A program made the translations under genes and the position numbers. Below the pieces are notes generated by a model that ran no database searches, was not told the origin of the DNA, and saw only the letters and a list, made by a program, of their open reading frames with translations. DNA of 64,000 bases from positions 1 through 64,000 of IMG/VR virus record IMGVR_UViG_2718218135_000001. One strand, given 5' to 3'. The DNA comes from a virus (lineage: Duplodnaviria; Heunggongvirae; Uroviricota; Caudoviricetes). Shown piece after piece: positions 3,732 through 60,748 of this stretch (positions within the stretch are counted from its first letter, which is position 1; every line of letters begins with the position of its first letter).

Positions 3732-3903
3732 TCTACACTCGCGGCATTGGAAGCAAAGATATGGTCGTCTGGCACCTGATGCACATTGATAAGGCTATCA
3801 ACCACACGCTGGAGAAGTTCTTTCCACCAGCCTGAACACAATGATTGTGCGCCTTATAGCGCCCATTAAGATAGATAAGTACTTACCAACAAGGAGAAAA
3901 CAC

Positions 3904-4179
3904 ATGAAGACTTTGGTTCGCATTTCATCTAGTACCGACTATGACGTTTACCCGTTGTTCATGATCAAGTGCGACGGGCTGAACGATGAAGAAATTCAAG
4001 CGGCAATTGAACGCAATCTAGTTGAATACACAGGAATGGATGCGGATTCTATTTATATCGATGATGACGGTGTTTGTTGGCACAAAGGTAGCTGCTGGTA
4101 CGTCGACGACACAATGCTGGTAAGCGATGAAGACGCGGCCCATCTTGAGCGCATTTTGGGTATCAGCACTTTTGAGTGA
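3904..4179 (+). CDS. hypothetical protein
   Basis: ORF 3841..4179; preferred start is the internal ATG at 3904 preceded by aaggag; a copy of the AAGTACTTACC palindrome lies just upstream. Confidence 0.4.
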   Translation: MKTLVRISSSTDYDVYPLFMIKCDGLNDEEIQAAIERNLVEYTGMDADSIYIDDDGVCWHKGSCWYVDDTMLVSDEDAAHLERILGISTFE

Positions 4180-4218
4180 TATTTACAGCAAAATATATAA
4201 GTTAGCATTTACCTATCA

Positions 4219-4398
4219 TGAAAATTTTATTAGATATCACGTTACTTATTATCTCGATAGCCTTTGTGCTCGACTGCATCTTCACAGGGGCAATCCGTAA
4301 AGCGCTGGCGCCTGTTAATGATGTGATGATCAATGCGCTGGCCGTAGTACTGGTCTTCGACTCAGCATTAGGCGTTTTCAAAGGAGTCGTGGCATGAA
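4219..4398 (+). CDS. small hydrophobic (membrane) protein, 59 aa
   Basis: Read by eye, below the ORF-track size cut-off: MKILLDITLLIISIAFVLDCIF...; its stop overlaps the next ATG (ATGA). Confidence 0.3.
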
Positions 4399-4729
4399 GA
4401 AAACAGCCCTGGTACTGGCGCTGCTCACTCTCCCCGTCTTTGCGGACACACATGTCTATGAGTGCGAAATGTTTGTGGTCGAAGCGAAAAACGGCCTGAT
4501 CCGCAACGTCGTTAAAGCTAATTACGGCGCGATGGTTGTGGACCGCGGCGAACAGTTTTATGTGGTACGCGATGATCGCGTCCTGTCTTCCCCGTTTCTC
4601 ACTAAACGTAACGGCGAACTATCTGGCGTAGGTAAAGATAGGTTCGTTTACAACAAATCGGGTGATGTATACGGCGTTCACGCGAAGAACGACAGCTACC
4701 TTTTCGATGACTGCAAGGAGATTAGTTGA
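4394..4729 (+). CDS. secreted hypothetical protein
   Basis: N-terminal signal-peptide-like segment MKKTALVLALLTLPVFA; RBS ggag upstream. Confidence 0.5.
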   Translation: MKKTALVLALLTLPVFADTHVYECEMFVVEAKNGLIRNVVKANYGAMVVDRGEQFYVVRDDRVLSSPFLTKRNGELSGVGKDRFVYNKSGDVYGVHAKNDSYLFDDCKEIS

Positions 4730-4941: not shown

Positions 4942-4944
4942 TAA

Positions 4945-5545
4945 CACTATCCACTGCGGTGAGTAGCCAGCTCACCGCGTGTGAATCCAGCTCATAACCA
5001 CTGTAGCGAGTAGAACACCCTTCAGGTATGCACCCCAACCACTGTAGTGAGCAAACCCTCTGCCACGATATCAACTATCCACTGTAGTGAGTAAATTGGT
5101 GATTATCGGGGTCGCTATACACTGTAGTGAGTAAACAGGCGTTCACTGACTACAAACAACCACTATAGAGAGTGATGGAATGCCCCCTCCAGCGGATATC
5201 CACTATGGAGAGTAAATCTTCGCTGTTTTAAACGGATATCCACTCACTACAGTGGATAGAGGTCAAGTCAGCCAATTCTGCTCTTCACAGTGGATAGTCA
5301 ACAATGAGGAGAGCGACGATAACCGCTGTAGAGAGTAGACTTAACAGAGATACCCAGTGACCGCTAACCTCTCAGCCCTTGTTTTATCTATGTTTGCAAC
5401 CACTAACATTTACTTCGCGATTTGTGCGCACTGCCTACAGTGGTTATTCTTCGGTTTCTTTTACTCACTACAGTGGATATTGCATTTCCGATAAACAAAA
5501 AGGCTCACTACAGTGGATAGTGAGCCTTTTTACTCTCTACAGTGG
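4945..5545. repeat. Iteron array downstream of repA (incA-like), at least 13 copies of a ~17-19 bp repeat in both orientations
   Basis: Repeated ATCCACTGTAGTGAGTA and variants (ccactgcggtgagta, ccactatagagagtga, actcactacagtggata) spaced ~35-45 bp. Confidence 0.8.
5496..5533. terminator. hairpin terminator at the 3' end of repA
   Basis: aggctcact...agtgagcct stem flanked by an A-run and a T-run; the stem is itself built from an iteron. Confidence 0.5.
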
Positions 5546-5550
5546 TTGGG

Positions 5551-6606
5551 CTATTTGCGAGCCTTTGCCTTGCGCAGCTCTTCGAGAATCGCCAGTTCTT
5601 CCTTGCTCAACATGACCATTTCCCCGTCTTTTTCTTCAGGGGCAACATCGATAATGTCCTCCGGATCATCACCTGGCAAGATATCTTCTGGCTCTTCAGG
5701 CGTAGCCATAGATGGCGGCAGTGCCGAACGTAACTTCGGCCGTCTATAGTGGATGACGAAGTAGACCGAGCTGCCGCGTTTCACTTCAGTGTAATCGAGA
5801 TAGCCGATCTCTCGCAGCTGCTCCATCGCCTTCCTGACTGTCGCATTCTGGGTAATGGTGCGGCTGGTTAAGTTAAGTCTGGCGCGTAAGCGAGCCAATG
5901 AGATTGGCGCCGGGTCTGGTGGCAAACTTTCAATGAAGGTGTAGAGCGCCTGCGCGGATTCTTTTCTGGAGAGTTCGTTGATGGCCCGAAGTTGCAAAAG
6001 CACCTTTTTGTCGAACTGGTAAAGTTCGAAAATCTTAGGATCGGCCTTCAGTTCGACCGTGTCATTCTTGGTACTGTACTTTGCCGTCTGCACAAGGTGC
6101 GTAACGTAATACTCTTCAGAGCCTTTGCTGCGGAATGAGATGGTGTTTGTGGCGATACGACTTAGAGAGCTGTCCAGGCGCTTACGTAACTTCGCGGACG
6201 ATCTGGCTGTTGGTATGCCACAAAGTCTGACGAACTCGACGAACGGCAACGTGACGGTGTCACCAACAACCTTGTGCTTGGCGAACGCGTGGATGATGCC
6301 CACCCATGTTTTGAAATCGTTATCCATATCAAGACGAAGACCAGCAATCCTTATATCCTCGTACCCTTCGGCTTTGGCCAGAGACAGCTGTTTGAGTTCA
6401 GCGGAGGCGTCCATAGAGACCATTTGCCCCTTTCTACCCCTGGATGTCGATTTCAGCGTCGGAACGAAGAGACCAAGACGCATCAGAGCAACAGGCTGAA
6501 CTGTGTTGTTGGTGTTAGGAACTAACGTAACAACTTCGCCGGTCTTTTTGTCTGTTTCGGAAAATGCTTCGCTTATCGCAATGTTTTTATTGTCGTTTAC
6601 GCTCAT
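5551..6606 (-). CDS. repA: RepA-like iteron-binding replication initiator
   Basis: 351 aa ORF flanked on both sides by iteron arrays, the classic RepA/incC/incA arrangement of iteron plasmids such as P1; the protein itself was not matched to a family. Confidence 0.6.
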
Positions 6607-6639
6607 TCCAAATGTCTCTTTTTATTCGACGGCTTGGGT

Positions 6640-7165
6640 GCCTTTACTGATTACAGTGGATAGTAGCACCCATCACAGTGGTTATCCTACCGCCTACAGC
6701 GGTTTTTCTACTCTCCATAGTGGTTGATTTACTCTCTATAGTGGTTGTTATTCTCACTATAGTGGATATCGATAACCTCTAAAGCCATGTGGCACAACGG
6801 TTTGCAGGGGCCGGGGATCTCTTTGGGTCTTTGTGGTTCTCTTTGGTTCTAACAGGGATCTGAATTACTGGATCGAGCCTGTGTATAAAAATCAGATAAT
6901 TACAAAATCAGGCATCACTCCCCTTCTGGGGATAATGTGTGATCGAAATAAACACGCCGCAACGCAAAATTTACAATATTTCCAAGAATATCAGCCATCT
7001 GCCGCAGAAAAACAGGCTCGGAGTTATCCAGTTAAAACATTGTCTCCTACTCACTACAGTGGATACCGACTACTCTCCAGAGAGGTTGTTTTGCTCTTCA
7101 TAGCGGTTATTATGCTCTCTACAGTGGTTATTTTGCTCTCTATAGTGGATAGTAACCCCTTCTCA
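6640..7165. repeat. Iteron arrays upstream of repA (origin/incC-like) with GATC clusters
   Basis: About 7 iterons (6650-6780) and about 5 iterons (7048-7160), same family as downstream; GATC-rich blocks lie between and after them. Confidence 0.75.
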
Positions 7166-7993: not shown

Positions 7994-8389
7994 AGGCAAA
8001 CTCATGCTTTTTACCGGGCATAAAATATGGTGTCTTAGAAAGACACTGAGAGCTTTAGGGATTAATGCATGAGTGAATTTTATTCAAGAGCAGAAACTGT
8101 GGCCGACGGATGCGTTTGAAGACGACGCACGCAAACGCCGTAAATGTCATCTCACAACTTCACCGTCCGTTCTCCTTTTTCATTTCTTGTCATCAGTAAA
8201 TGACTGCTCTCATAAAATTGCTTGTGACGTTTAGAAATCATTGCTGCCCTATCTGATAGGTATTTACTTACTTATTTTTTTGTCATTATCATGTGCCTTT
8301 ATATTCTTTTGTGTGCCGTGTTGTCTGGGTTGTACGCCTCTTATGCACGCTTAGAATTTGTATCAAAATAACCACAAAGGAAAAGACAC

Positions 8390-9475: not shown

Positions 9476-9516
9476 GGCAACGTTATTATGGGAGCTTTCG
9501 AGAGTTTGCCATCGTG

Positions 9517-13257: not shown

Positions 13258-13293
13258 GTTGATAATTGATAGGTAAGTGCTTATCTATTACCA

Positions 13294-13322
13294 TGAGACC
13301 ACTATATATAGTGGTCTTTTTA
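13294..13322 (+). terminator. rho-independent terminator
   Basis: gagaccactatatatagtggtc hairpin followed by TTTTT. Confidence 0.6.
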
Positions 13323-13522: not shown

Positions 13523-14401
13523 ATGAAATTTACGAAACTGACCGATCATCTGAAACTTGCCGCAGACAAACTCGTGGGGTTTAAACCAGAGCCTTACGAG
13601 TTGAATCCCGGTTTCGGCAAGACAACGGAAAGCATCTACCTGATGGTTGACCAGTTCCACACACTGTTTCAGCACCCACGCCGTGCCATTCCAGATCCGG
13701 CATTACTGCGTCTGCGTGCCAAGCTGATCCACGAAGAAGCAGTTACCGAGGGCATCCCGGCAGCCAAAAATGGGGATATGACGGCACTGCTGGACGCGAT
13801 GGCTGACTTCCTTTACGTGGGCGTCGGCACAATGGTGGCCATCAAAGGCGGCATCTCGACGGGCATGAGTTACTACACCCAAGAGCAGAGTGTTGATTGC
13901 TTCATCCACACCATCATGGTTCCGGGCAACACGGTCTTTGACGATATGGCTATCCCGTTTGAAGAAGCAAAAGAAGCTGCATTAATGCTGAATGCGCTGG
14001 CTGACAAACTTGAAGCGAAGCCGATAAGCGATTCCGAATTGGTGCAGGAGCTGCGCCGCGTGATGAACAAAATCTACGTTGCCTGCATGATGACCTACCG
14101 TCTGGCTGATTTTCTCGGAATCGATATTGTTGAGCTGGTGGCAGAAATCCACCGTTCCAACATGACCAAGCTGTGGCCGGCTGACGCCGAAGAGCGTCGT
14201 GTGGCGGTAGAGAATTGCAAATACGATAAGGAAGATCTGGGGTTCCGCCATGCTGAAGGGACTGACATGATGATCGGCTTCAGGATTTCTGATGGCAAGA
14301 TCCTCAAATCTCCCACCTACAGCGATGTGGATCTGACTTGCTTTGTTGAGAAGGCGAAGTCCTCATCTCTTTACGAGATGGTAAAAAATAATTGTAAGTG
14401 A
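13523..14401 (+). CDS. MazG-like nucleotide pyrophosphohydrolase (putative)
   Basis: N-terminal all-alpha region with EE/D-rich motifs typical of MazG/HisE-type NTP pyrophosphatases; weak, by eye. Confidence 0.35.
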   Translation: MKFTKLTDHLKLAADKLVGFKPEPYELNPGFGKTTESIYLMVDQFHTLFQHPRRAIPDPALLRLRAKLIHEEAVTEGIPAAKNGDMTALLDAMADFLYVGVGTMVAIKGGISTGMSYYTQEQSVDCFIHTIMVPGNTVFDDMAIPFEEAKEAALMLNALADKLEAKPISDSELVQELRRVMNKIYVACMMTYRLADFLGIDIVELVAEIHRSNMTKLWPADAEERRVAVENCKYDKEDLGFRHAEGTDMMIGFRISDGKILKSPTYSDVDLTCFVEKAKSSSLYEMVKNNCK

Positions 14402-14463
14402 GTACTTATCATTATATATTGCCTTGGCGTGTTTTATTGTCCAAGTTCTTAATTGCTCATTGC

Positions 14464-14493: not shown

Positions 14494-14568
14494 ACTCCCC
14501 TCCTAGCCTTACACACTTCTGACAGATAAACTTGTATAAAATAATAGGTATGCACTTACTTATCTTGT

Positions 14569-19388: not shown

Positions 19389-19406
19389 TAGGTAAGTATT
19401 TACCTA
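19389..19406. promoter_or_regulatory. Copy of the dispersed 18 bp palindrome TAGGTAAGTA(T/C)TTACCTA, 14 bp upstream of the methyltransferase ATG
   Basis: taggtaagtatttaccta; same motif recurs at a dozen or more intergenic sites. Confidence 0.45.
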
Positions 19407-20215: not shown

Positions 20216-20446
20216 ATGGTATACCCGACGAACGTCGTAGCGCTCGTTGAGAGCGATTTTCTGGCCACAGTGCGCGACATGATGAAAGATCGCGATAAGG
20301 CTTTCAGTCTCTACGAATGGTCGCTCAAATGTCTTCATTCAGGCGAGCACAAAGAGCTGGTGGAGCAGCTGTTAGGGGAACTCATCAATGAGGTGTTTGC
20401 CCTGAACGTCCAGCTTCATGGGCGAGAAATTAATCAATCAATATAA
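20216..20446 (+). CDS. hypothetical protein
   Basis: 76 aa ORF with RBS aaggaaa; followed by a palindrome copy at 20447-20464. Confidence 0.45.
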   Translation: MVYPTNVVALVESDFLATVRDMMKDRDKAFSLYEWSLKCLHSGEHKELVEQLLGELINEVFALNVQLHGREINQSI

Positions 20447-21160
20447 TAGGTAAGTACTTACCATTCAAAACACCACTAACCAGTGATACAATCTATCCGC
20501 TTCCGGATACTTTCGGCAGCTCGACCTGATGGGTGGGGGACAGCGTCACTGGCGTCAGGTTTAAAAAAGCTCACTACCAGCGTAGAACCGGCACCGTTTA
20601 GGGGTTGGGGAAGGGGGAACCAAAGTGGGCAGAGAGAAGGGTCACTTTATGATTGTCGAGTCTGGAGTGTTTCGAGAGGTTGAATCCAGTACTCCCCTTC
20701 ATAAAGTGTGGGAAGATCTCGGTTCTGGGGTGCTGTCATCCATAACTTCCCAAGCCTAAGCTGGCAGTAGACTTAGGTCATAACTTTTCAGGTTATGAAA
20801 CGACCAGGTTGGTGAGGAAATTTTGTACTCACCTCCCTGGGAGAGTATTACCTGAAAAGACAACCTCTCACTTCGTTCGAGGTGAACTTCACTCACTTCG
20901 TTCGTTCAGTTCAGGTTTTATTAAAACCTGTTCTGGGAAGTAAGTTTTTCTTTTCTAAAAAATTTTTAATATTTACACGCACGCGTACGCGCACAAGCGA
21001 GGGAAAAAAACCTCCCCTTGTAATGTCCTCAATGTGCCAAAAGCGGCCTGTCATGCCTGCTTAAAAGACGGATTTAGCGTAGGATATTTTCCGTCTTCCA
21101 GGCGGGCCCCCACTACGATGACACAAAAGGAATTTTGGATTTAAATATCAAGGGGATCAA

Positions 21161-22339: not shown

Positions 22340-22741
22340 ACATACCTCACAGATTGGGGTCAGTTTGGATATCGAAAATTATTGTACGTTAAGTAAGAGG
22401 GCTTGTGAACTGCTCCCTGTTGATTAACACGCCACAATGCTAGTAATGCGGCTATCTGGCTACGAGATTAACTGCGAACTTCCGCTCATCGCTCAAAGCC
22501 GACTTAGCGTGTGACCGCCTGGCTAAGATCACCGCCTACTCCGCAGCAGATATGCCTCACAAGCGTGACATTCGATTTTTGTCACAAAATAATAAGTAAG
22601 TATTTACCTACCATTTTAAATCAGGTATCTTATCGCTTGTAAGGATGACGAAGTACCGGTTAGGTACTGTTCCAGGATGGAACGCCAAAAGGCGGCTGGC
22701 TTGGCCAGCCGCAACTCTTTCTGACACTGAATGGAATCCAA

Positions 22742-26425: not shown

Positions 26426-26483
26426 TAGGTAAATACTTACCTAATTTATGTAAGAATAGAGCCACTTTATCAGAGGTAAACAC

Positions 26484-34541: not shown

Positions 34542-34599
34542 TATTGTAAGTACTTACTTATGATAATAAAATTAAAAATTAAACACTAAGGAGAGTGAA

Positions 34600-42045: not shown

Positions 42046-42109
42046 AAACCTCTTTCCTTCGTGCCTTTTGTATGGTAATTGGCTATTATGTTAAGTAAGT
42101 ACTTACACA

Positions 42110-42808
42110 ATGGATTGTATCAAAAATATGGATGTGAAAATTACGATTCTACAGGTGGAAGTCGCGAACCTGCGTCCGAACCCCTGGAATACCAACTCCG
42201 TTGGGGCGCAAAACTTCGAAAAACTGAAAGGTTCCATCGAAAAGTTGGGCTTTTTTAAGCCAATTCTGGCGCGAGAGCTGGACGGCGGCATTTTTGAGAT
42301 TCTCGGTGGCGAACATCGCTGGCGTGCCGCGATGGAGCAGGGCATTTCAACGGTTCCCGTAATGTCGGTGGGAAAAATTAACGACCTGGTGGCCAAACAG
42401 ATGTCTCTCGTCGATAACGAGCGCTACGGCGAAGACGATCAGATCGCTTTGCAACGCTTAATCGAAGAAATTCAGTCTGAAATTGACTACCGGTTGTCTG
42501 ATATCGCCCCGTATGACGACGAAATGGCGGCAACGCTCGCCAAAGCATCCGTTATCGATCTTGAAGCGCTGGAAGCGCTCTCCCGCGGCGATGACGAGCC
42601 GGTCGGTGAGGACAAACGCGAGAAAATCGAGCGAGTCGGTGCTGAACACCAGACGATGCGCTTCAAGGTGACGTTCGATGCGTCAGATCGCGTCGCCGAT
42701 ACCATCAAAACCATCATCAAAGAGCAGGGAATCAATACCGGTAACGAAATGGAGAACGCCGGGGAAGCCTTGGTGTGGCTGGTCGACTACTACAAGGAGC
42801 GTATGTAA
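42110..42808 (+). CDS. ParB N-terminal-domain (ParB/sulfiredoxin-like) protein
   Basis: LRPNPWNTN and ILGGEHRWRAA motifs of the ParB nuclease-like fold; acidic C-terminal half. Confidence 0.55.
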   Translation: MDCIKNMDVKITILQVEVANLRPNPWNTNSVGAQNFEKLKGSIEKLGFFKPILARELDGGIFEILGGEHRWRAAMEQGISTVPVMSVGKINDLVAKQMSLVDNERYGEDDQIALQRLIEEIQSEIDYRLSDIAPYDDEMAATLAKASVIDLEALEALSRGDDEPVGEDKREKIERVGAEHQTMRFKVTFDASDRVADTIKTIIKEQGINTGNEMENAGEALVWLVDYYKERM

Positions 42809-43476
42809 TGACCAAGAACTTTGAAATCGTATATCGAAACCCGGCAGAACTTATCCCGTATGAGATGAACGCCAAAAAACATGACGAACAGCAGATCCAC
42901 GACCTGGCGGCTGCCATCAAAAAGCGCGGTTTTGACCAGCCGATCACGGTCGACAAGCACGACGTCATCATTACTGGTCACGGTCGTCGCGAGGCGGCAC
43001 TTCTGGCTGGTCTGGAGCGTGTGCCTGTCATCGTTCGCGACGATCTGAGCGAAGAAGAAGTGAAGGCGAAGCGTCTTGAAGACAACCGCCTGGCCAGTAT
43101 TGACTACGACGCCATCAAATTGCAGCAGGAACTGGAGTCCCTGGTGCTGGGTGACGTTGAGGTCTTTGGTTTTGAAGAGCGAGAGCTGAACGTGCTTGTT
43201 GGCAGCATGACCGAAGAGATGGAAACAGGCTCTCTGGTGCTCGATCTGGGTGAAGAGACGGAACGCCAGAAAGAAGAGCACACCGAGATCAGTCGCGAAG
43301 TGGCCTCTGAAGAAGTCCGAGTCATCGACGTATTGGGCTTTAAAACGCTCCCTGCTGGCTCTGCCATTGTGGTTGGGGATTTGCTTGCCCACATGGAAGA
43401 AATTACGGGAGAAAGCGGGGTAGACGCTTTCGTGGCGTATGCGGAGAAAGTTTCCTCTGGGGAGCTGGCTGCATGA
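42808..43476 (+). CDS. ParB N-terminal-domain protein (second paralogue)
   Basis: ITGHGRREAA motif; start overlaps the upstream stop (TAATG). Confidence 0.5.
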   Translation: MTKNFEIVYRNPAELIPYEMNAKKHDEQQIHDLAAAIKKRGFDQPITVDKHDVIITGHGRREAALLAGLERVPVIVRDDLSEEEVKAKRLEDNRLASIDYDAIKLQQELESLVLGDVEVFGFEERELNVLVGSMTEEMETGSLVLDLGEETERQKEEHTEISREVASEEVRVIDVLGFKTLPAGSAIVVGDLLAHMEEITGESGVDAFVAYAEKVSSGELAA

Positions 43477-44111: not shown

Positions 44112-44358
44112 TTTGAAGATCGTAGAGCTGAAGCCATCGAAAGAGGCTGACAACAACAACGTTGAAGTCATCCGCCTGCTGGAAGAAGCACTCCAGTACG
44201 CCAGAGAAGGCAAAAGCCAGAGCCTGGCACTGCTGATGATCAACAACGACGGCAGTGTGCTGGATTGCTGGCATAACGGTGGGCGTCCATACGTCATGGT
44301 TGGGGCGATAGAATCGCTTCGCCTGGACTTCATCAATGCCAATATCGAGCGTAGGTGA
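44104..44358 (+). CDS. hypothetical protein
   Basis: 84 aa ORF overlapping both neighbours. Confidence 0.4.
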   Translation: MPDLKIVELKPSKEADNNNVEVIRLLEEALQYAREGKSQSLALLMINNDGSVLDCWHNGGRPYVMVGAIESLRLDFINANIERR

Positions 44359-45254: not shown

Positions 45255-45263
45255 GGATTTGCC

Positions 45264-45530
45264 ATGACGTTGACCGATAAACAAAAAGACATCATCAAAA
45301 CCATCAATTTAGGCCATGAGCGTGGGTATCTGCTCGATCTGGACGAGCTGCTTGAGGTTCTGCCGTACAAAACGACCAAACAGAGTATGCAGTTCTCTAT
45401 CCGCGCACTGGTGAAAAAGGGGCTGGTGGAGAAGGGAATGTGCCGCCAGCGCGGCGATTCAGGTTATCACCGTCGCACGCTGGGACTGACCACGTTAGGT
45501 CGTGCAAGAGCCAAATTACTGGTGATGTAA
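45264..45530 (+). CDS. small winged-helix-like DNA-binding protein (putative)
   Basis: 88 aa, basic C-terminus; weak assignment. Confidence 0.3.
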   Translation: MTLTDKQKDIIKTINLGHERGYLLDLDELLEVLPYKTTKQSMQFSIRALVKKGLVEKGMCRQRGDSGYHRRTLGLTTLGRARAKLLVM

Positions 45531-46370: not shown

Positions 46371-47627
46371 ATGGCCATCCCGTCGTCTCTGAGTCTCGTA
46401 CAGCTGCATTCTGGGCAGATGCAAGTCTTCCAGTCGCCACATCGTTTCAAAGTGGTGTGTGCGGGTCGACGCTGGGGTAAATCCCGGTTGTCGATCTCCA
46501 CCATCATCCGCGCGGCAGCCAAAGAGAAGAAGCAACGTGTCTGGTATGTCGCACCGACTTACCAGATGGCTCGCCAGATCTTGTGGGATGACCTGCAGGA
46601 AGTTCTGCCGCGCAAATGGGTTCGTAAGAAAAACGACACCACGATGACCATCGTGCTGAAGAACGGCTCTGAAATCGCGCTGAAAGGTGCGGATAAGCCC
46701 GATACGCTTCGTGGTGTGGCACTGCACTTTGTGGTGCTCGATGAATTTCAGGATATGAAGCCTGACACCTGGTACAAGGTACTGCGTCCGACACTGTCCT
46801 CCACCCGTGGCGGTGCGCTGATCATCGGTACGCCAAAAGGCTTCTCCGAGTTCCACAAGCTGTGGACTATCGGTCAGAACAAAGATTTGCAACGCAAGGG
46901 GCAGTGGAAGAGCTGGCAGTTCGTTACGGCCGATTCTCCGTTCGTACCGAGCGCGGAAATCGAAGCAGCGAAGAACGATATGGACCCTAAATCGTTCGCA
47001 CAGGAATACCTGGCCAGCTTCGAAAACATGTCCGGACGCGTTTACTACCCGTTCGACCGCAATGTGCATGTGAAGCCACTCCAGTTCAATCCGAAACTGC
47101 CGATCTGGGTTGGTCAGGACTTCAACATCGACCCTATGTCATCGGTCATCCTGCAACCGCAGCCAAATGGTGAACTGTGGGCTGTGGACGAATTGGTGTT
47201 GTTCTCTTCTAACACGGCTGAAGTGTGTGACGAGCTGGAGCGTCGATACTGGCGCTGGAAATCTCAGGTCACTATCTTTCCTGACCCGGCAGGTGCGTAT
47301 CGCCAGCACGCACGCGGCGAATCTGACGTCGACATCTTCAAAGAGAAAGGTTTCCTTCGAGTCGATTATCCGAAGAAGCACCCGCCGATCGCAGACCGTG
47401 TTAACGCAGTGAACCGCATGTTGATGAGTGCCTCGGGCGAAACCCGGTTGTACATCGATCCGAAGTGCAAACACCTCATCGACTCGCTGGAGAAGGTGAT
47501 CTACAAGCCAGGCTCACGCGATATGGATAAGACTGGCGGCATCGAACACAGTGCGGATGCGTTGGGTTATCCGGTTCATCGTAGGTATCCGGTGAAAAAT
47601 CGTGTTATTCTTGGTGGATCTAGATAG
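46371..47627 (+). CDS. terminase large subunit
   Basis: Walker A VVCAGRRWGKS, Walker B HFVVLDEFQDM, C-terminal RNaseH-like acidic motifs (GQDFNID, VDEL, FPDPAG). Confidence 0.75.
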   Translation: MAIPSSLSLVQLHSGQMQVFQSPHRFKVVCAGRRWGKSRLSISTIIRAAAKEKKQRVWYVAPTYQMARQILWDDLQEVLPRKWVRKKNDTTMTIVLKNGSEIALKGADKPDTLRGVALHFVVLDEFQDMKPDTWYKVLRPTLSSTRGGALIIGTPKGFSEFHKLWTIGQNKDLQRKGQWKSWQFVTADSPFVPSAEIEAAKNDMDPKSFAQEYLASFENMSGRVYYPFDRNVHVKPLQFNPKLPIWVGQDFNIDPMSSVILQPQPNGELWAVDELVLFSSNTAEVCDELERRYWRWKSQVTIFPDPAGAYRQHARGESDVDIFKEKGFLRVDYPKKHPPIADRVNAVNRMLMSASGETRLYIDPKCKHLIDSLEKVIYKPGSRDMDKTGGIEHSADALGYPVHRRYPVKNRVILGGSR

Positions 47628-47642
47628 GTAAGTACTTACCTA
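47625..47642. promoter_or_regulatory. Perfect 18 bp palindrome TAGGTAAGTACTTACCTA between terL and the portal gene
   Basis: Exact palindrome directly after the terL stop, 19 bp before the portal ATG. Confidence 0.5.
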
Positions 47643-47660: not shown

Positions 47661-49235
47661 ATGGAATTGACTGACAAGCAAATCAAAGACCTTGTGGCAC
47701 GACGCCACCCTGAATATGAGAAGAAAAAAGAACATTGGGACTTCCTCGCCAGCACCTACGCTGGCGGGCGTGCCTGGTTCAACGACAATATCTTCCGTTA
47801 CTTCAAAGAGGGCGATCAGGAGTTCAAAGAGCGCCTGGAACGCGCTTATCGCTTCAACCATACGCGCGAAGTGGTAAACCTCATCAACAAATACCTCTTC
47901 AAAGAGGTCATTCACCGCAACACTGATGAAGCACCGGAGCAGATCCGCAATTTCTGGAAGCGAGCCACGCGCCAGAACGCCTCCATCGATGCGTTTATGG
48001 CGGCTATCGATCTGCAATCATCCATTTATGGCCGTATCTGGGTTGTCGTGGATAGCACGATGAACGTCGATGTTGAGTCTGTTGCAGACGAGAAGAAAAA
48101 TGATGCGCGTGCCTACGCTTACTGGATTTCGCCGCAGCAGCTGCTTGATGTTGCCTGGGATGAAGACGGCAATATGTTGTGGGCGCTGATTGTTGAAATC
48201 GCGCGCGACGACGAAGATCCGTTCACTTCAACCGGGCAGGAATACCAGCGTTACCGTCTGTGGACGCAAAACGAGTGGTATCTGTTCCGTGAAGAAGTGA
48301 AGAAGGGTTCCGGAAATAGCGGTCGCCGTCAGGCCAAAGTCGTTCTGGAGGATAGCGGCCAGCATAATCTGGGCGTGGTGCCGGTGTTCCCGGTGGATTG
48401 CATTGGTGAAAGCGAGTCTCCGTATTTTAGCCCGTCGTTGATTGACGATATTGCCTATCTTGATCGCGCCGTGGCCAACTACCTGTCGAACCTTGACGCG
48501 ATTATTCAGGATCAGACATTCAGCCAGTTAGCGATTCCGGTTCAGTCCCTGCTGCCGGGCGATGAAAACCACACCAAAGTGCTCGAAATGGGGACAAAAC
48601 GTGTCTTCACCTTCGATTCTGAGAGCGGTAATCAGCCATTCTATCTGTCTCCAGACCCGAAACAGGCTCAGATGATCATCACCACGATTAAGACGGTGAT
48701 TAATGAGATCTACCATTCCGTTGGTGTGGCTGGTGAGCGAACCAAGCAGGATAACGCGCAGGGTATCGACAACTCTTCGGGGGCAGCGAAGATGTACGAC
48801 TTCCAACGTATTAACAGTCTGCTGGTGACAAAAGCAGAGCGCCTCGAAAGGGCAGAACGCCAAATGATGGAGTTGGCTGCGAAATGGATGGGCATCGAAT
48901 TGGATGAAGACCACTCTCTGATCGCTTACCCGGAGAGTTTCGATATTCGTGGTCTGACTGACGAATTTGCCGTCGCTGAGAAATTGTCGCTGTTACAGGC
49001 GCCTGATTCTGTACGTCGTCATCAGATGGAAATGCTCATAGAAAAGATCTTCCCGAATATTTCCGAAGCGATGCAAAAGGAATTTAAAAAAGATCTCTTG
49101 AAATTTCCTCTAAAAAATGCTCCTGATGCCCTTGAAAATAAGTTAGTACTTACTTATGATCGCGATACAGTCCAAGGAAGCGGACAAGATCAACCCCGAG
49201 GGAATGGGGACTCATCTACTCAAGAGACCGAGTGA
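47661..49235 (+). CDS. portal protein (putative)
   Basis: 524 aa ORF directly after TerL, no NTPase motifs; assignment by position and size. Confidence 0.55.
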   Translation: MELTDKQIKDLVARRHPEYEKKKEHWDFLASTYAGGRAWFNDNIFRYFKEGDQEFKERLERAYRFNHTREVVNLINKYLFKEVIHRNTDEAPEQIRNFWKRATRQNASIDAFMAAIDLQSSIYGRIWVVVDSTMNVDVESVADEKKNDARAYAYWISPQQLLDVAWDEDGNMLWALIVEIARDDEDPFTSTGQEYQRYRLWTQNEWYLFREEVKKGSGNSGRRQAKVVLEDSGQHNLGVVPVFPVDCIGESESPYFSPSLIDDIAYLDRAVANYLSNLDAIIQDQTFSQLAIPVQSLLPGDENHTKVLEMGTKRVFTFDSESGNQPFYLSPDPKQAQMIITTIKTVINEIYHSVGVAGERTKQDNAQGIDNSSGAAKMYDFQRINSLLVTKAERLERAERQMMELAAKWMGIELDEDHSLIAYPESFDIRGLTDEFAVAEKLSLLQAPDSVRRHQMEMLIEKIFPNISEAMQKEFKKDLLKFPLKNAPDALENKLVLTYDRDTVQGSGQDQPRGNGDSSTQETE

Positions 49236-51056: not shown

Positions 51057-51091
51057 TCAGAATACTAGGTAAGTAGTTATCTACTTAATAT

Positions 51092-51118
51092 GGGTGGGCT
51101 ATACGCCCACCTTTTTTG
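51092..51118 (+). terminator. rho-independent terminator
   Basis: ggtgggc-tatac-gcccacc followed by TTTTTT. Confidence 0.7.
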
Positions 51119-54161: not shown

Positions 54162-54235
54162 CAAAATAAGTAAATATATACTTACTATTGGCGCCATGAA
54201 GGTGCTGATTTAACGGAAAAAGGAGTTTTCCAACA

Positions 54236-55026: not shown

Positions 55027-55041
55027 AAAGGATTTTAACCA

Positions 55042-55709: not shown

Positions 55710-55716
55710 CAAGGGA

Positions 55717-58700: not shown

Positions 58701-60288
58701 GGCGGCCGGATATCAGAAGGCTCTGGATAAAGCCGATCAGCTTATGGGGCAAATGGGTGAAAGCTCTAAGGCTACGGTATCGTTTGATCAGTCTCTTCGC
58801 GATACAACGAAATCGCTGACTGATTTGGCTAATGCGGTTCCTAACGAGTTCATCACTCAAGAGATGATCGACAAGGCGAAAAAACGTCTTGAAGACCTTA
58901 AAAATGCGACACCTGAATATCGCGAGATGTTTAATCGCCGCAATGTTGAGCAGATGATCTCCACTTGGGCACCGGAGGCGGATTCCATTATTAGTGCTGG
59001 CTATACGCCGTCTCGCGAAGAGAAAGTTGCTGATTTCGAAGACACCTACAACCGCAATCTCAAAGCGTTGATAGAACTTCGTGATAAGGCGTCTGATCCT
59101 AAAGTTGTGGCGCTTTATACAAAGAAAATCAATCAACTGATTGCTGCTGGCAATACCGCGCTTATTAAAGAGACGGGGACTGCGACGCAGAAGTTGGCAC
59201 TGGAATACGAAAACCTGGCAGAGCAGATCGAAAGCACCTGGACTGATTTGTTTAGTGGCTTAACTGATGTTCTGACTGATTTCGTTATTAACGGGAAGAT
59301 GAGCTTCTCCAGCCTGTCCCAGTCCATTTTGAAAGATATCACCAATATGGTCGTGAAGTCGCAGATCACGCTGCCTCTAATGAACATGTTGGGGATGGGA
59401 ACCACCGCAGTTGGTAGTTCACAGAGTGGTAATTTGCTCACCGGGGTTGCTTCCGCAGTTGCCAATCAAGGTGTGCGCATAAGCAACACTGTTAATGGCG
59501 ACAAGTCGGTAGGAGAAGCCACGAAGGAGACGTCCAGTTCGGTAACTGGATTGGGGCAAACGACACAGCAGACCACCAGCGCAATTGGCACAGCAACAAA
59601 TGCGATTGGTAGCTGGGTATCAGGGCTATTTGATAGCACCGAAGCCAAAGATGCTGAGACAAAAGCAGTGAAGGATTCCATCTTCTCGATGCAGAACCTC
59701 AGCTCTGTTACCGGTGCTCTGTCTGCCGCGTTCGCAATGCTTGGAGCTAATGCTTCCGGCTCTGGTAATAAGTGGTTGAATTTCGGCGCGACAGTTGCAT
59801 CTGGGTTGGTTTCAGTATGGGCAGGTGGTGGTTTCGACAGCGCGACATCAAACTCTGCTAAAACCGCAACCAGCAGTGTGGCTGACGGAACTAAAGGCAT
59901 TCCTGCAATCCCGAAGTTTGCAAATGGAGGAATATTCGGAAAAGACGGCGTGATCCCGCTCCGGGCATACCAGAAAGGCGGTATTGCTAACTCGCCTCAA
60001 TTAGCGTTGTTTGGGGAAGGTTCTATGAATGAGGCGTATGTTCCATTGCCTGATGGTCGAACAATCCCTGTAACGCTCAGTACCGATGGTATGAGTGGAG
60101 GAGGAAATGTTCTTTCTCCGGTATCAATTGAGATCAACGTCCATAGTGACGGTAGCACAACTGAATCCGGCGATACAGAAAGCATATGGAACAATGCCGC
60201 TCAACGGATGAAAGCAATCGCGCTTGAGACTATCGCTCAAGAGAAACGCCCTGGCGGATCACTCAACCCAAACACTCAACGTAACTAA
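55717..60288 (+). CDS. tail tape measure protein
   Basis: About 1520 aa, coiled-coil/alpha-rich with glycine-rich and TM-like central segments; first ATG with RBS aaggga (track start 55696 is TTG). Confidence 0.8.
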   Translation: MSQNVEFVLSLEDKQFTASIDRAGKLLTRFGEQATKPAQKINNLERSLGSVSRIIGVLESKLDATADKLQDVAAGFELVSDVSRKTRGNITSLNSGLKTLIERVDTTTSSVNKLTTSLRKVQSELNEFSDWATFAGKSASRFGTEVKEASTSVSGMNTRLNTTTKRLSNWGVTTNQAAEGLKKVRDQMDAVIGRQQLISKPVRVRTSGYGEGGGNGGGGRHSGSYGHGGRGAENGVFSGLRGNIFLLGEIGDAARTVTDILFGWQKPIVEAASKMERMCVMLRGLNKDKANPGKAAAEDMQYIVDMAQNAPFAMQALTDSFVKFRSAGLDPTDGSLKALVDSVARFGGDSELLKRAAVAVQQMSGKGVVSMEELRQQLGEAVPNAMKAMADAAGITMGELTKAVSSGTVEAKQALSLMFVGLRAENENAAKDMMQTYTGALAQLQTSFTLFADRVGQTGYLDSLSKGMKELASIMNSAEGISFANSLGSGLTTAIDGLRQLAQWLAKNQELVINLGKVVAAMVAFKLMRAGIMGVVGAGSQMVSTFATMATAIQTPFNLGATAVTRFNRAARMGLAPIPSLIFAIRGAITGLKGAFAGLTAFIAANPIGAAFTVATVAVAGLITYMTMLRSETSKVVDEIRKIPEAMTAAKRAQMAEYKARLEQQITQKEQELKSGEKVVYGPGMAGTAVKINQDERKRIENELNDLREKRDKTTGAIERGDTAVAKRLAKDAAESQIEKIREENRDFAATFAKARQEALEKIQKINDDDSLSDDEKNKLLAPLRETVNKSYLEPAQKLVDSLSSRKNATEKQIATLNDQLEKAKKDGNTEQIQKLQGSIRGYQEHLEAVAQELTQAEFERDNAAKTGKGVMSNQGTVLGLGTTDKAAQKALAQYMRNQMDSATYQRTLPDGTPMMDFEGKPIIGPKQLKTQLNLQKASSASSLEKMSDAERAAAIAALTKAREQDAAAAEKAGRRTANASQRAAKKEQAAQQKLAAGYQKALDKADQLMGQMGESSKATVSFDQSLRDTTKSLTDLANAVPNEFITQEMIDKAKKRLEDLKNATPEYREMFNRRNVEQMISTWAPEADSIISAGYTPSREEKVADFEDTYNRNLKALIELRDKASDPKVVALYTKKINQLIAAGNTALIKETGTATQKLALEYENLAEQIESTWTDLFSGLTDVLTDFVINGKMSFSSLSQSILKDITNMVVKSQITLPLMNMLGMGTTAVGSSQSGNLLTGVASAVANQGVRISNTVNGDKSVGEATKETSSSVTGLGQTTQQTTSAIGTATNAIGSWVSGLFDSTEAKDAETKAVKDSIFSMQNLSSVTGALSAAFAMLGANASGSGNKWLNFGATVASGLVSVWAGGGFDSATSNSAKTATSSVADGTKGIPAIPKFANGGIFGKDGVIPLRAYQKGGIANSPQLALFGEGSMNEAYVPLPDGRTIPVTLSTDGMSGGGNVLSPVSIEINVHSDGSTTESGDTESIWNNAAQRMKAIALETIAQEKRPGGSLNPNTQRN

Positions 60289-60330
60289 CTATCGACTGCC
60301 CCGACCGGGGCAGTCTCACAAGGATGTGAG

Positions 60331-60666
60331 ATGGAAAGACAAACGTTTAATTGGTATCCAGATTACGAATCTGAAAAAAGCGTAAAACCGAATGTAACGG
60401 TACTTAATTTTGGTGATGACTACGAGCAGCGACAGGCTCAAGGTCTTAATCGTATTAAAGAAGAATGGTCGTTAACCTTTACCAGATCATACAACGAAAT
60501 TAATGCAATCGATGACTTCCTGACTGAGCGATCAGGCGTTGAATCGTTCTATTGGGTTAATCCAAGAGGCAAGCAGATTGTAGTTGTATGTGACAGTCAT
60601 ACGGTCAAGCGATATCAGGGGTACTGTGTCTTAACTGCTACATTCAGACAAGTATTTGAGGCTTAA
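60331..60666 (+). CDS. minor tail protein (lambda gpM-like)
   Basis: 111 aa, co-linear with lambda M by recalled sequence (FGDDYEQRQAQGLN...). Confidence 0.6.
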   Translation: MERQTFNWYPDYESEKSVKPNVTVLNFGDDYEQRQAQGLNRIKEEWSLTFTRSYNEINAIDDFLTERSGVESFYWVNPRGKQIVVVCDSHTVKRYQGYCVLTATFRQVFEA

Positions 60667-60748
60667 GTATCTGGATAAGTAAGTACTAATTTACTATCAT
60701 TGTGGCGCTGACAGGATGTTGGCGCCTTTTTATTTCAAGGAAGAAACA

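What the first reader, a model, noticed from the sequence alone, without database searches (positions are those of the whole stretch)
3873..60695. Dispersed 18 bp palindrome TAGGTAAGTACTTACCTA at 14 or more intergenic sites
Perfect or near-perfect copies lie at approximately 3873, 8256, 13270, 14544, 19389, 20447, 22593, 26426, 34544, 42091, 47625 (perfect), 51066, 54166 and 60675, with one intragenic relative near 49140. Almost all sit between a stop codon and the next start, including operon boundaries in the replication, metabolism and virion modules. It is too short and AT-rich to be a good terminator on its own, so a dimeric protein binding site is the likelier reading.
Basis: seen in the sequence. 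Interest (0 to 1): 0.6.

Follow-up and report, generated by a model that had tools for sequence, protein, structure and literature searches.

The report
Dispersed palindromic operator of SSU5-like phage-plasmids
The repeated 18-bp palindrome is real and marks about 17 gene boundaries in this SSU5-like phage-plasmid; it behaves like the DNA docking site of a two-part regulatory protein that most likely keeps the virus's lytic genes silent, a known kind of control not yet described for this widespread plasmid family.

Summary
The window is an SSU5-like phage-plasmid. It holds 12 copies of TAGGTAAGTACTTACCTA at 3 or fewer mismatches (0 expected) and 17 by weight matrix. Sixteen lie outside genes. 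Whole relatives (SSU5, Cyrano, Klebsiella pJN2-26) carry about 26-33 copies at matching positions.

Distant relatives in Acinetobacter, Aeromonas, Morganella, Xenorhabdus, Massilia and others carry their own 18-bp palindromes. These share G4-T5 / A14-C15 and sit at the same gene junctions.

The two arms vary independently: 538 paired positions against 539±7 after permutation. There is no G-U bias, and the RNA hairpins are weak (0 to -7 kcal/mol). So it is a double-stranded DNA site for a symmetric dimer, not an RNA structure or terminator.

Sites overlap promoter-like sequences at variable register, or sit between a stop codon and the next gene or terminator. They avoid the minus-strand block and are almost absent from the accessory block.

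Best reading: a dispersed operator/roadblock regulon silencing lytic transcription units. The likeliest binder is the family's Xre-type repressor, encoded outside the window, whose own promoter carries the motif over its start site. The in-window ParB-like protein is the main rival. No binding was tested.

It is a new member of a known kind (P1 C1 operators, L5 stoperators, SPβ SPBRE).

The parts
3872..3889 (.). Palindrome copy TAGATAAGTACTTACCAA (2 mismatches). It ends 14 nt before the ATG at 3904.
   Evidence: the downstream gene start is annotated in the 99%-identical plasmid
4198..4215 (.). It starts 18 nt after a stop codon and ends 2 nt before the ATG at 4218.
   Evidence: (matrix score 23.3); orthologous copies at SSU5 58074 and Cyrano 59399
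8257..8274 (.). Copy TAGGTATTTACTTACTTA (3 mismatches), upstream of the SbcD/SbcC-like operon. It overlaps a promoter-like TTTACT-18-TATCAT.
13270..13287 (.). Copy TAGGTAAGTGCTTATCTA (2 mismatches), 12 nt after a stop codon. It lies in the spacer of TTGATA-17-TACCAT and is followed directly by the terminator at 13295-13318.
   Evidence: terminator -13.5 kcal/mol, site -7.0
14395..14412 (.). Weak copy TAAGTGAGTACTTATCAT (5 mismatches) that overlaps the stop codon of the MazG-like gene. It overlaps TTGTAA-17-TATATT.
   Evidence: (score 14.3); ortholog at SSU5 72357
14545..14562 (.). Copy TAGGTATGCACTTACTTA (3 mismatches), upstream of the thymidylate synthase / DHFR operon.
19389..19406 (.). Copy TAGGTAAGTATTTACCTA (1 mismatch), ending 13 nt before the ATG of the Dam methyltransferase gene at 19420.
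20447..20464 (.). Copy TAGGTAAGTACTTACCAT (2 mismatches) that starts on the base after a stop codon. A TG-extended TTCAAA-17-TACAAT begins at its last base.
22593..22610 (.). Copy TAAGTAAGTATTTACCTA (2 mismatches). The -10 of the promoter-like GTGACA-17-AATAAT ends at its first base, so the site covers the predicted start point.
26426..26443 (.). Copy TAGGTAAATACTTACCTA (1 mismatch) that starts on the base after the stop codon of the DUF4942 gene and ends 40 nt before the next ATG.
34543..34560 (.). Copy ATTGTAAGTACTTACTTA (4 mismatches), just after a terminator-like hairpin with a T-run. It overlaps TTGTAA-17-TAAAAT.
   Evidence: orthologs at SSU5 93165, Klebsiella 28031 and Cyrano 96686
42092..42109 (.). 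Copy TAAGTAAGTACTTACACA (3 mismatches) in the 64-bp divergent gap between the UvsW-like helicase gene (-) and the first ParB-like gene (+). It abuts the ATG at 42110. A copy sits at this position in most lineages examined.
47625..47642 (.). The perfect copy. Its first three bases are the stop codon of the large terminase gene, and it ends 18 nt before the portal ATG. The same junction carries the lineage-specific palindrome in Acinetobacter and Aeromonas.
49139..49156 (.). Copy TAAGTTAGTACTTACTTA (3 mismatches) inside the 3' end of the portal gene. It lies in the spacer of, and overlaps the -10 of, the best promoter-like match in 40-60 kb (TTGAAA-17-TATGAT, 10 of 12), 101 nt before the next gene.
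   Evidence: kept in SSU5 3544, Klebsiella 42093 and Cyrano 3527
51066..51083 (.). Copy TAGGTAAGTAGTTATCTA (2 mismatches), 9 nt after the major capsid stop codon. It is followed directly by the terminator at 51092-51112.
   Evidence: terminator -15.4 kcal/mol
54167..54184 (.). Weak copy TAAGTAAATATATACTTA (5 mismatches), 5 nt after a stop codon. It overlaps TTGAAT-18-TATACT.
   Evidence: (score 21.1); orthologs at SSU5 9067 and Klebsiella 47136
60676..60693 (.). Copy TAAGTAAGTACTAATTTA (4 mismatches), 9 nt after a stop codon. It is followed by a GC hairpin with a T-run, read directly from the sequence.
   Evidence: score 22.6; orthologs at SSU5 15589 and Klebsiella 53621 (score 30.6)
42110..42808 (+). 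ParB-like protein 1, a candidate binder (rival explanation). It has a ParB N-terminal domain with a GGEHRWRAA box, an acidic linker, and a conserved C-terminal ~50 residues that look like strand-helix-helix.
   Evidence: the C-terminal fold is my inference only (no Pfam hit; AlphaFold model unusable)
42808..43476 (+). ParB-like protein 2, in the same operon. It is conserved in the five full or near-full genomes compared (window, SSU5, Klebsiella, Acinetobacter, Aeromonas).

Best explanation
The palindrome is a dispersed operator. It is an 18-20 bp site on double-stranded DNA, with a weaker symmetric extension to about 24 bp (TRA-TAGGTAAGTACTTACCTA-TYA). Each half is read by one subunit of a phage-encoded dimeric regulator. 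About 17 copies in this window, and 26-33 in whole genomes of the family, punctuate the plus-strand lytic transcription units: replication and recombination, nucleotide metabolism, the ParB-like/terminase operon, and head and tail genes. Where a copy overlaps a promoter's -35, spacer, -10 or start point, occupancy blocks initiation. Where it sits between a stop codon and the next ribosome-binding site or terminator, it acts as a roadblock to read-through. Together these keep the plasmid-prophage silent, and release of the protein opens all units at once. The likeliest binder is the family's Xre-type repressor, the homologue of Cyrano CYRAN_45. It is encoded next to the integrase, outside this window, and its own conserved promoter carries the motif across the start site (autoregulation). 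Shown here: the sites exist, are intergenic, are conserved across the superfamily, have independent half-sites, and overlap promoter-like sequences. Inferred: protein binding, repression, and the identity of the binder.
For: (1) Enrichment: 12 sites against 0 expected, and 17-18 by matrix against 0.03. SSU5 and Klebsiella pJN2-26 have 32-33 at matrix score 12 or more, against 0.2 or fewer expected.
(2) Location: 24 of 26 SSU5 sites and 16 of 17 window sites are intergenic.
(3) DNA-level symmetry: the arms vary independently (538 pairs against 539±7), there is no G-U bias (41 against 37), and the hairpins are weak.
(4) Selection: in orthologous gaps the motif is 84-87% identical against 73-77% for the ±30-nt flanks.
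(5) Deep conservation with co-divergence: Acinetobacter has TTAGTAAGC|GCTTACTAA at 27 sites and Aeromonas has TCAGTAAAY|RTTTACTGA at about 30, both against 0.25 or fewer expected. Further variants occur in Morganella/Xenorhabdus (TAGGTATTT|AAATACCTA), Massilia and Piscirickettsiaceae (AAGTCACnnGTGACTT), and Oxalobacter. All keep G4-T5/A14-C15. The terL-portal junction keeps a copy in Acinetobacter and Aeromonas, and the helicase/ParB-like gap keeps one in most lineages.
(6) Promoter overlap: the best sigma-70 score within ±50 nt is higher on the gene strand than on the antisense strand (9.2 against 7.8, Wilcoxon P = 2e-5, 84 sites). The -10 position relative to the motif is variable. 9 of 21 plus-strand promoter-like hits touch a site.
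(7) Distribution: there are no copies inside the minus-strand block 36.9-42.0 kb, and only one weak copy (34543) in the accessory block 26.5-36 kb. In Cyrano, 10 of the 13 genes reported as expressed in the lysogen (PMC9928086) have no site upstream, and the other 3 have weak or divergent ones.
(8) Binder: the Xre-type repressor is in 994 PLSDB plasmids, against 1035 with the terminase and with the same host spread. It is homologous across Cyrano, Klebsiella, Acinetobacter and Aeromonas. 27 enteric alleles at 56-100% identity keep the recognition helix GYKNxNNLSLIKSGK. They also keep the promoter TTTACA-16-TAATAT, followed at once by cGGTAAGYACTTACCag. Aeromonas has the motif inside TTGATT-16-TATTCT before its homologue.
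Against: No binding or expression data exist for this element, so repression is an inference from position.
The proposed repressor gene is not in the window. It is seen only in relatives, including a plasmid 99% identical to part of the window.
The promoter-like matches are individually weak. Their total number is below the shuffle expectation, and the AT-rich motif itself supplies hexamer-like sequence.
Sites from four related genomes are not independent samples.
The Acinetobacter repressor gene has only a degenerate copy upstream.
Five late-region sites lie just upstream of strong terminators, where a roadblock seems redundant.
The ParB-like proteins are just as conserved and also have a copy at their own gene, so the evidence does not separate the two candidate binders.
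A second dispersed palindrome, AAACAAnTTGTTT, shows that there is more than one regulon, so matching each protein to its site is uncertain.
Confidence: 0.55

Rival explanations
1. The sites are parS/OB/NBS-like loading sites for the ParB-like proteins encoded in the window (42110-43476). This would be a KorB- or Noc-like system in which a ParB-family protein binds many dispersed, contiguous palindromes. It might then spread or slide to silence, organise, segregate or prepare the genome for packaging.
For: Two ParB N-terminal-domain proteins are conserved in all full genomes compared (37-42% identity in Acinetobacter and Aeromonas). Protein 1 aligns to Spo0J/Noc/ParB structures and has a GGEHRWRAA arginine box. 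A copy of the lineage-specific palindrome lies within about 100 nt upstream of this gene in most of the lineages examined. Fully conserved contiguous palindromes without a degenerate centre are typical of parS, KorB OB and Noc sites (my own knowledge). The conserved C-terminal segment HQTMRFKV...IKEQGI...AGEALVWL resembles a ribbon-helix-helix (inference).
Against: No canonical ParB helix-turn-helix domain or RHH family was detected. The structure model was unusable, with pLDDT 36. The C-terminal strand does not track motif variants: HQIMRFKV occurs with both GTAAGCGC and GTCACnnG motifs. The ParB-like genes are not among the Cyrano genes reported as expressed in the lysogen. They sit in the late operon ahead of the terminase, which is an odd place for a lysogenic silencer. 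The family has a separate ParA-type partition operon.
Confidence: 0.2
2. The palindrome is an activator box, that is, part of a phage-specific promoter class. A phage dimeric activator would turn on lytic units, as the palindromic box of P1 late promoters does with Lpa.
For: Sites precede most lytic transcription units, and sense-strand promoter scores exceed antisense scores. Many associated promoters have poor -35 elements.
Against: The distance from the motif to the best -10 is spread over about 70 nt, with no fixed register, whereas activators need fixed geometry. Several sites overlap the -10 or the start point, and some end 0-18 nt before an ATG, leaving no room for a downstream promoter. 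The motif also covers the start site of the repressor gene's own promoter. Early and late modules share the same box.
Confidence: 0.1
3. The motif works in RNA, as a hairpin that acts as a weak terminator, a processing or stabilising element, or a translational operator next to the ribosome-binding site. A possible partner is the FljA-like protein at 38190-38714.
For: Many copies lie just after stop codons and 2-20 nt before start codons. A Flag1_repress (FljA-family) protein is encoded in the window, and FljA acts on fliC mRNA translation (PMC2652032).
Against: There is no arm covariation and no G-U bias. 26% of pairs are non-Watson-Crick. MFE is 0 to -7.3 kcal/mol, and two sites are unfolded. 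There is no T-run at most sites and no Rfam match. The FljA-like gene is absent from the Acinetobacter and Aeromonas relatives, which keep the palindromes. Conservation is of sequence, not of structure.
Confidence: 0.05
4. The copies are selfish or recombinogenic repeats, either REP/MITE-like palindromes or module-boundary sequences that drive mosaic gene exchange, with no regulatory role.
For: They sit at gene and module boundaries in a mosaic genome family.
Against: Orthologous positions are kept across lineages whose terminases are only 52-60% identical, while the sequence co-diverges symmetrically. There are no flanking target duplications or longer repeat units. Copies outside the family in IMG/VR are single (GTAA)n-type palindromes. 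The motif is better conserved than its flanks.
Confidence: 0.03

Closest known systems
Stoperators and operators of the mycobacteriophage L5 / cluster A repressor (gp71)
   Same: There are more than twenty repressor sites spread through a temperate phage genome. They lie both in promoters and in short intergenic spaces, and are proposed to block initiation and elongation (PMC9283540). The number, the intergenic placement and the stop-codon-to-next-gene position are the same here.
   Different: L5 sites are asymmetric 13-mers bound by a monomer, and they work in only one orientation relative to transcription. Here the site is an 18-20 bp perfect palindrome, which implies a symmetric dimer and no orientation dependence. 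The hosts are Gram-negative and the phage family is unrelated.
SPBRE repeated element bound by MrpR, master repressor of Bacillus prophage SPβ
   Same: A large temperate phage carries one conserved short element repeated in many intergenic promoter regions. It was predicted in silico as an operator decades before MrpR was shown by ChAP-seq to bind it (PMC10516654). That is the stage this motif is at now.
   Different: SPBRE is a 15-bp motif with about 10 bound sites, and its binder has a tyrosine-recombinase fold. Here there are 26-33 sites, and the candidate binders are an Xre-type HTH protein or a ParB-like protein.
Dispersed C1 operators of phage-plasmid P1 (my own knowledge; Łobocka et al. 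2004 is cited in PMC11652158)
   Same: A ~100-kb plasmid-prophage in enterobacteria has lytic functions scattered in many units, each with its own repressor operator.
   Different: P1 operators are asymmetric 17-mers. P1 late genes use a separate Lpa-dependent promoter class, whereas here one motif serves both early-type and virion modules.
ParB-family global sites: RK2 KorB OB sites, Bacillus Noc sites, and the dispersed SopB sites of phage-plasmid N15 (my own knowledge; Ravin et al. 2008 is cited in PMC11652158)
   Same: These are contiguous, fully conserved palindromes scattered around a replicon, with one at the ParB-like gene itself. In N15, a phage-plasmid couples partition sites to late gene expression.
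   Different: There are 4-12 sites in N15 and RK2, against about 30 here. The in-window proteins lack a detectable canonical ParB helix-turn-helix domain, and the real partition operon of the family is elsewhere.

Membership tests
Intrinsic (Rho-independent) terminator | Stable GC-rich hairpin | tested here: not met
   MFE is 0 to -7.3 kcal/mol for the 17 window sites, against -13.5 to -15.4 for neighbouring true terminators.
Intrinsic (Rho-independent) terminator | Run of T directly after the stem | tested here: not met
   The consensus flank is T-Y-A-T and then mixed sequence. The tool's terminator scan calls none of the sites themselves, only the hairpins beside 13270 and 51066.
Structured RNA element (processing site or translational operator) | Base pairing maintained by compensatory or G-U changes | tested here: not met
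   Watson-Crick pairs are 538 of 750 against 539.0±7.3 after permutation. G-U mismatches number 41 against 37 A-C. There is no Rfam family match.
Dispersed repressor operator regulon (P1 C1 / L5 gp71 / SPβ MrpR kind) | One short motif, many copies, spread over the whole phage genome | tested here: met
   17 copies in the 64-kb window and 26-33 in whole genomes, against fewer than 0.3 expected.
Dispersed repressor operator regulon (P1 C1 / L5 gp71 / SPβ MrpR kind) | Copies lie in promoters or short intergenic spaces of lytic genes and not at lysogeny-expressed genes | tested here: met
   24 of 26 SSU5 sites are intergenic. Promoter scores show a sense-strand bias. There are no copies inside the minus-strand block. 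Strong sites are absent from the genes reported as expressed in the Cyrano lysogen.
Dispersed repressor operator regulon (P1 C1 / L5 gp71 / SPβ MrpR kind) | The prophage repressor binds the motif and represses transcription | not testable with these tools
   Only indirect support exists: the motif lies over the start site of the conserved promoter of the Xre-type repressor gene in 27 alleles.
L5-type stoperator specifically | Asymmetric site whose orientation follows the direction of transcription (monomer binding) | tested here: not met
   The site and its flanks are symmetric. It therefore works like a stoperator at most and is not a member of that class.
ParB-family site (parS / KorB OB / Noc NBS) | Contiguous palindrome of 13-18 bp with a conserved centre | tested here: met
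   Information content is high across all 18-20 positions, including the central GTAC.
ParB-family site (parS / KorB OB / Noc NBS) | Cognate ParB-family protein with a DNA-binding domain encoded in the element | tested here: inconclusive
   The ParB_N domain and a GGEHRWRAA box are present. No HTH_ParB or RHH family was detected, and the model had pLDDT 36.
REP / MITE-like selfish palindromes | Copy positions not conserved between relatives, and spread like a mobile element | tested here: not met
   Orthologous junctions keep a copy across lineages with 52-60% terminase identity.

The most novel reading that the evidence does not exclude
The palindromes may be loading sites for an unusual ParB-family protein: a ParB N-terminal (possibly CTP-binding) domain fused through an acidic linker to a ribbon-helix-helix-like DNA reader. 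About 30 sites per genome would let it coat or organise the whole phage-plasmid chromosome. That would be a Noc/KorB-like genome-wide system, conserved from Enterobacterales to Burkholderiales next to the terminase genes. Together with the second palindrome class (AAACAAnTTGTTT), it would form a two-code punctuation of the genome.
Probability: 0.15. Interest if true: 0.75.

Novelty: new member of a known kind. Interest (0 to 1): 0.5.

Why it matters
SSU5-like phage-plasmids are common. About 1000 records in PLSDB carry the terminase and the repressor, among them plasmids of Yersinia pestis and Salmonella enterica and many Klebsiella, E. coli, Enterobacter and Acinetobacter plasmids. Published work reports that phage-plasmids carry antibiotic-resistance genes (PMC9600943 abstract).

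How these elements keep about 100 kb of lytic genes silent as plasmids, and how they switch on after DNA damage, is not described in the literature I could search. A single motif that marks nearly every lytic transcription unit gives several things:
- a map of the regulon
- a direct handle for ChIP, gel-shift and reporter experiments
- a signature for recognising members of the superfamily and their lineages, because each lineage has its own variant
- a natural series of co-diverged protein-site pairs for studying how operator specificity evolves

Tried and rejected
- **FljA-like protein as binder.** The protein at window 38190-38714 matches Pfam Flag1_repress at E = 6e-69. It was attractive because FljA acts on mRNA, but I rejected it. 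It is only 71% identical among enteric relatives that share an identical motif. It is also absent from the Acinetobacter and Aeromonas relatives that keep the palindromes.
- **RNA hairpin, terminator or RNase III site.** Rejected on covariation, wobble bias and folding energy.
- **Fixed-geometry promoter or activator box.** No -10 lies at a constant offset. TAnnnT hexamers at the motif edges are equally frequent on both strands.
- **Sigma factor of the Acinetobacter relative as a family-wide reader.** It has no homologue in the other lineages.
- **Link between the residue after HQ in the ParB-like C-terminal strand and the motif centre.** It looked promising with 4 lineages. It broke when 19 genome loci were added.
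- **AlphaFold on ParB-like protein 1 without an alignment.** pLDDT was 36, so the model was unusable and no fold search was run. The homologues returned by the protein search were all about 88% identical or more, too shallow for an alignment.
- **Plasmid CP014652.** I fetched it as a possible very distant relative, but it is an ordinary plasmid with a stray terminase gene.
- **Exact-pattern scan of IMG/VR.** 31 of 74 hits had little nucleotide similarity to the family. Most carry single copies of the low-complexity palindrome GTAAGTAAGTACTTACTTAC, so they are not the same system. One 103-kb contig is a genuine fourth lineage.
- **Literature.** No paper holds the sequence string, and none links SSU5 or pHCM2 to a repeated palindrome. 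Gilcrease & Casjens 2018 and the FljA mechanism papers are not held, so a prior description cannot be excluded.

Full report
**What the window is.** The virion genes are 95.5% identical to Salmonella phage SSU5. Bases 1-24000 are 99% identical to E. coli plasmid pYUXYEH3934-1. The window is therefore 64 kb of an SSU5-like phage-plasmid. It runs from a plasmid replication region (repA with iterons), through recombination and nucleotide-metabolism genes, an accessory block and a minus-strand block, to the ParB-like/terminase operon and the head and tail genes.

**Observation.** TAGGTAAGTACTTACCTA occurs 12 times at 3 or fewer mismatches, against 0.00 in shuffles.
- A symmetrised 20-bp matrix gives 17-18 sites against 0.03 expected.
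- The weak copies (34543, 54167, 60676) are real, because better copies sit at the matching positions in SSU5, Cyrano and Klebsiella pJN2-26.
- 16 of 17 window sites are outside genes. In annotated SSU5, 24 of 26 are intergenic although 88% of the genome is coding.
- The motif contains stop codons in two of three frames on both strands, which alone depletes it from genes. Even after allowing for that, the excess is P = 1e-11.
- Typical placement is 0-40 nt after the upstream stop codon, and three window copies overlap or abut it. The next start is 0-120 nt downstream in annotated SSU5.
- Four or five late-region copies in each genome are followed within 1-10 nt by a strong GC hairpin with a T-run.

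**DNA or RNA.** I compared 75 unique sites from four enteric genomes.
- The number of Watson-Crick positions between the arms is 538 of 750. That is what permuting right arms among sites gives (539.0±7.3, P = 0.58), and adding G-U pairs changes nothing.
- Mismatches that would be G-U in the plus-strand transcript (41) are no commoner than A-C (37).
- At the most variable pair, G/A on the left and C/T on the right assort independently.
- Predicted RNA hairpins are 0 to -7.3 kcal/mol, against -13.5 to -15.4 for the real terminators beside them.
- Rfam has no match.
- Information content is high at all 18-20 positions, including the centre. The flanks are symmetric, so the consensus extends to TRA-TAGGTAAGTACTTACCTA-TYA.
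- In orthologous gaps the motif is 84-87% identical, against 73-77% for the adjacent 30 nt.

These results point to two half-sites read independently on double-stranded DNA by a symmetric dimer.

**Depth of conservation.** Relatives with terminases only 54-60% identical have their own dispersed palindromes.
- Acinetobacter pDETAB1 has TATTAGTAAGC|GCTTACTAATA at 27 sites, against 0.1 expected.
- An Aeromonas plasmid has TCAGTAAAY|RTTTACTGA at about 30 sites, against 0.25 expected.
- A 103-kb IMG/VR contig (terminase 52% identical) uses TTAAGTAAGTACTTACTTAA.
- A scan of one genome per species with the ParB-like protein returned 19 loci. These showed further variants: TAGGTATTT|AAATACCTA in Morganella and Xenorhabdus, AAGTCACnnGTGACTT in Massilia, a Piscirickettsiaceae genome and another metagenome bin, and AAGTAAGAGCTTACTT in Oxalobacter.
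- All are 16-18 bp palindromes that keep G4-T5 / A14-C15. Both arms change together between lineages.
- The terminase-stop/portal-start junction keeps a copy in Acinetobacter and Aeromonas. The divergent gap between the UvsW-like helicase and the first ParB-like gene keeps one in most lineages examined.

The element is therefore an old, selected part of the superfamily's core design. It is not a recent repeat expansion.

**What the sites do.**
- The tool's sigma-70 scan finds few promoter-like matches overall, but 9 of 21 on the plus strand touch a site.
- One is the best match in 40-60 kb: TTGAAA-17-TATGAT, with the intragenic portal copy lying in its spacer and overlapping its -10.
- With a log-odds promoter model, the best score within ±50 nt of 84 sites is higher on the gene strand than on the antisense strand (9.2 against 7.8, Wilcoxon P = 2e-5). 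This is a fair control, because the palindrome itself contributes equally to both strands.
- The position of the -10 relative to the motif is spread over about 70 nt. The motif can cover the -35, the spacer, the -10 or the start point. That pattern fits an operator and argues against an activator box.
- Other copies have no credible promoter. Examples are 3872, 47625 at the terminase-portal junction, and 51066. These sit between a stop codon and the next ribosome-binding site or terminator, which is the position of L5 'stoperators' (PMC9283540).
- There are no copies inside the minus-strand block (36.9-42.0 kb). The accessory block (26.5-36 kb) holds only one weak copy, at 34543.
- In Cyrano, an SSU5-like element that is induced by ciprofloxacin, 13 genes are reported as expressed in the lysogen (PMC9928086). 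Ten have no site upstream. The other three (the repressor gene, CYRAN_81 and CYRAN_117) have a weak or a divergent one.

**Who binds.**
- The FljA-like protein in the window is excluded. It is absent from the Acinetobacter and Aeromonas relatives.
- Two candidates remain.

*The Xre-type repressor.*
- It is annotated in Cyrano as CYRAN_45, lies next to the integrase, and is expressed in the lysogen.
- It is not in the window, but it is in 994 PLSDB plasmids with the same host spread as the terminase (1035). One of them is a plasmid 99% identical to part of the window.
- It has homologues at the same position in Klebsiella (56%), Acinetobacter (38%) and Aeromonas (31-36%).
- Across 27 enteric alleles the recognition helix is nearly invariant. 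Upstream lies a conserved TTTACA-16-TAATAT promoter, followed immediately by cGGTAAGYACTTACCag. This is the inner 14 bp of the motif placed over the start site.
- Aeromonas has its own variant inside TTGATT-16-TATTCT. Acinetobacter has only a degenerate copy.
- SSU5 shows no homologue of the Aeromonas or Acinetobacter repressor and annotates no such gene at that position. From my own knowledge it was isolated as a lytic phage, which would fit this protein being the lysogeny repressor.

*ParB-like protein 1 (42110-42808).*
- It has a ParB N-terminal domain with a GGEHRWRAA box and similarity to Spo0J/Noc/ParB.
- Its C-terminal segment is conserved across the lineages where it could be read, and I read it as strand-helix-helix. 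No family matched it, and the single-sequence model failed.
- A copy of the palindrome precedes its gene in most lineages.
- Against it: its C-terminal strand does not follow the motif variants. It also lies in the late operon and is not reported as expressed in the Cyrano lysogen.

I rate the repressor-operator reading at 0.55 and the ParB-like reading at 0.2. That the motif is a DNA site for a dimeric protein I rate at about 0.85.

**Comparison with known systems.**
- In function it resembles the dispersed operators of P1 C1, the operators and stoperators of L5 gp71, and the SPBRE sites of SPβ MrpR (PMC10516654).
- It is not a member of the L5 or P1 classes, because those sites are asymmetric and, in L5, orientation-dependent. 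This site is a perfect palindrome.
- It shares the form of ParB-family sites (parS, KorB OB, Noc), and N15 offers a precedent for dispersed partition sites that affect late genes.
- I found no description of this motif for SSU5, pHCM2, pMT1 or their relatives. The key comparative paper on these plasmids is not held, so prior notice cannot be ruled out.

**Verdict.** The feature is real, strongly non-random, under selection, and conserved across a large and clinically relevant family of phage-plasmids. The mechanism is a known kind, a dispersed operator regulon, in a family where it has not been described. The identity of the binder is open, and there is a more unusual ParB-based alternative. 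Interest is 0.5.

Noticed in passing
window 23513, 24711, 28433, 28749, 30502, 32069, 33270, 33648, 34139, 35037, 35801, 45645, 45670 (plus-strand starts): A second dispersed motif, rAGAAAACAAnTTGTTTA (core palindrome AACAAnTTGTT). It has 13 copies in the window against 0.1 expected, and 16-18 in SSU5, Cyrano and Klebsiella. This matrix finds none in the Acinetobacter or Aeromonas relatives. It fills the accessory block where the main motif is rare and usually lies 13-25 nt before a start codon. In SSU5 it also precedes parA, the DnaB-like helicase, the CobT-like gene and terS. It is probably a second regulon.
   Followed up: partly
window 38190-38714 (-): A 174-aa protein of Pfam family Flag1_repress (FljA, repressor of phase-1 flagellin; E = 6e-69). 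It is only 71% identical to its SSU5 and Klebsiella counterparts, although neighbouring genes are 92-98% identical. By eye it looks like two Rof/Sm-like repeats. It might act on host flagellin or on phage mRNAs.
   Followed up: partly
window 5040-5520 and 6640-7150: Iteron-like repeats (CTCACTACAGTGGATAG and variants, at least 12 copies) flank the repA gene (5551-6606, minus strand) on both sides. This is the plasmid replication origin region.
   Followed up: partly
window 42110-45530 (+): An operon conserved across the superfamily sits ahead of the terminase genes. It encodes two ParB N-terminal-domain proteins, an ABC-type ATPase (43473-44111), a small protein, a 296-aa protein with no family match, and an 88-aa protein. 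It is always divergent from a UvsW-like DEAD helicase (40486-42045, minus strand). Its function is unknown.
   Followed up: partly
window 49132-49160: The best sigma-70-like match in 40-60 kb (TTGAAA-17-TATGAT, 10 of 12) lies inside the 3' end of the portal gene, with a motif copy lying in its spacer and overlapping its -10. It is kept in SSU5, Cyrano and Klebsiella, and is probably an internal promoter for the following head genes.
   Followed up: partly
window 28863-30083 (-), 3038-3724 (+), 6-3023 (+): Insertions relative to SSU5: an ISL3-family transposase, an integrase-core (rve) fragment, and a type I restriction R subunit at the window start. The motif-free stretch 26.5-34.5 kb is partly made of such cargo.
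   Followed up: no
motif positions -2..+3 at many sites, e.g. window 20444-20449, 26423-26428, 47625-47627: About half of the copies are preceded by TAA or TGA in frame with the motif's own TAG/TAA. The upstream gene then ends in tandem stop codons built into the extended palindrome (TRA-TAG...). The same triplets occur mirrored on the other strand, so this seems to be part of the site rather than a translational feature.
   Followed up: partly
loci L004, L006, L011, L013, L014 and about 20 others (IMG/VR contigs that are not SSU5-like): Unrelated viral contigs (GC 34-47%) carry single copies of the longer low-complexity palindrome GTAAGTAAGTACTTACTTAC. L013 has two copies 55 bp apart. I did not work out what these are.
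   Followed up: no
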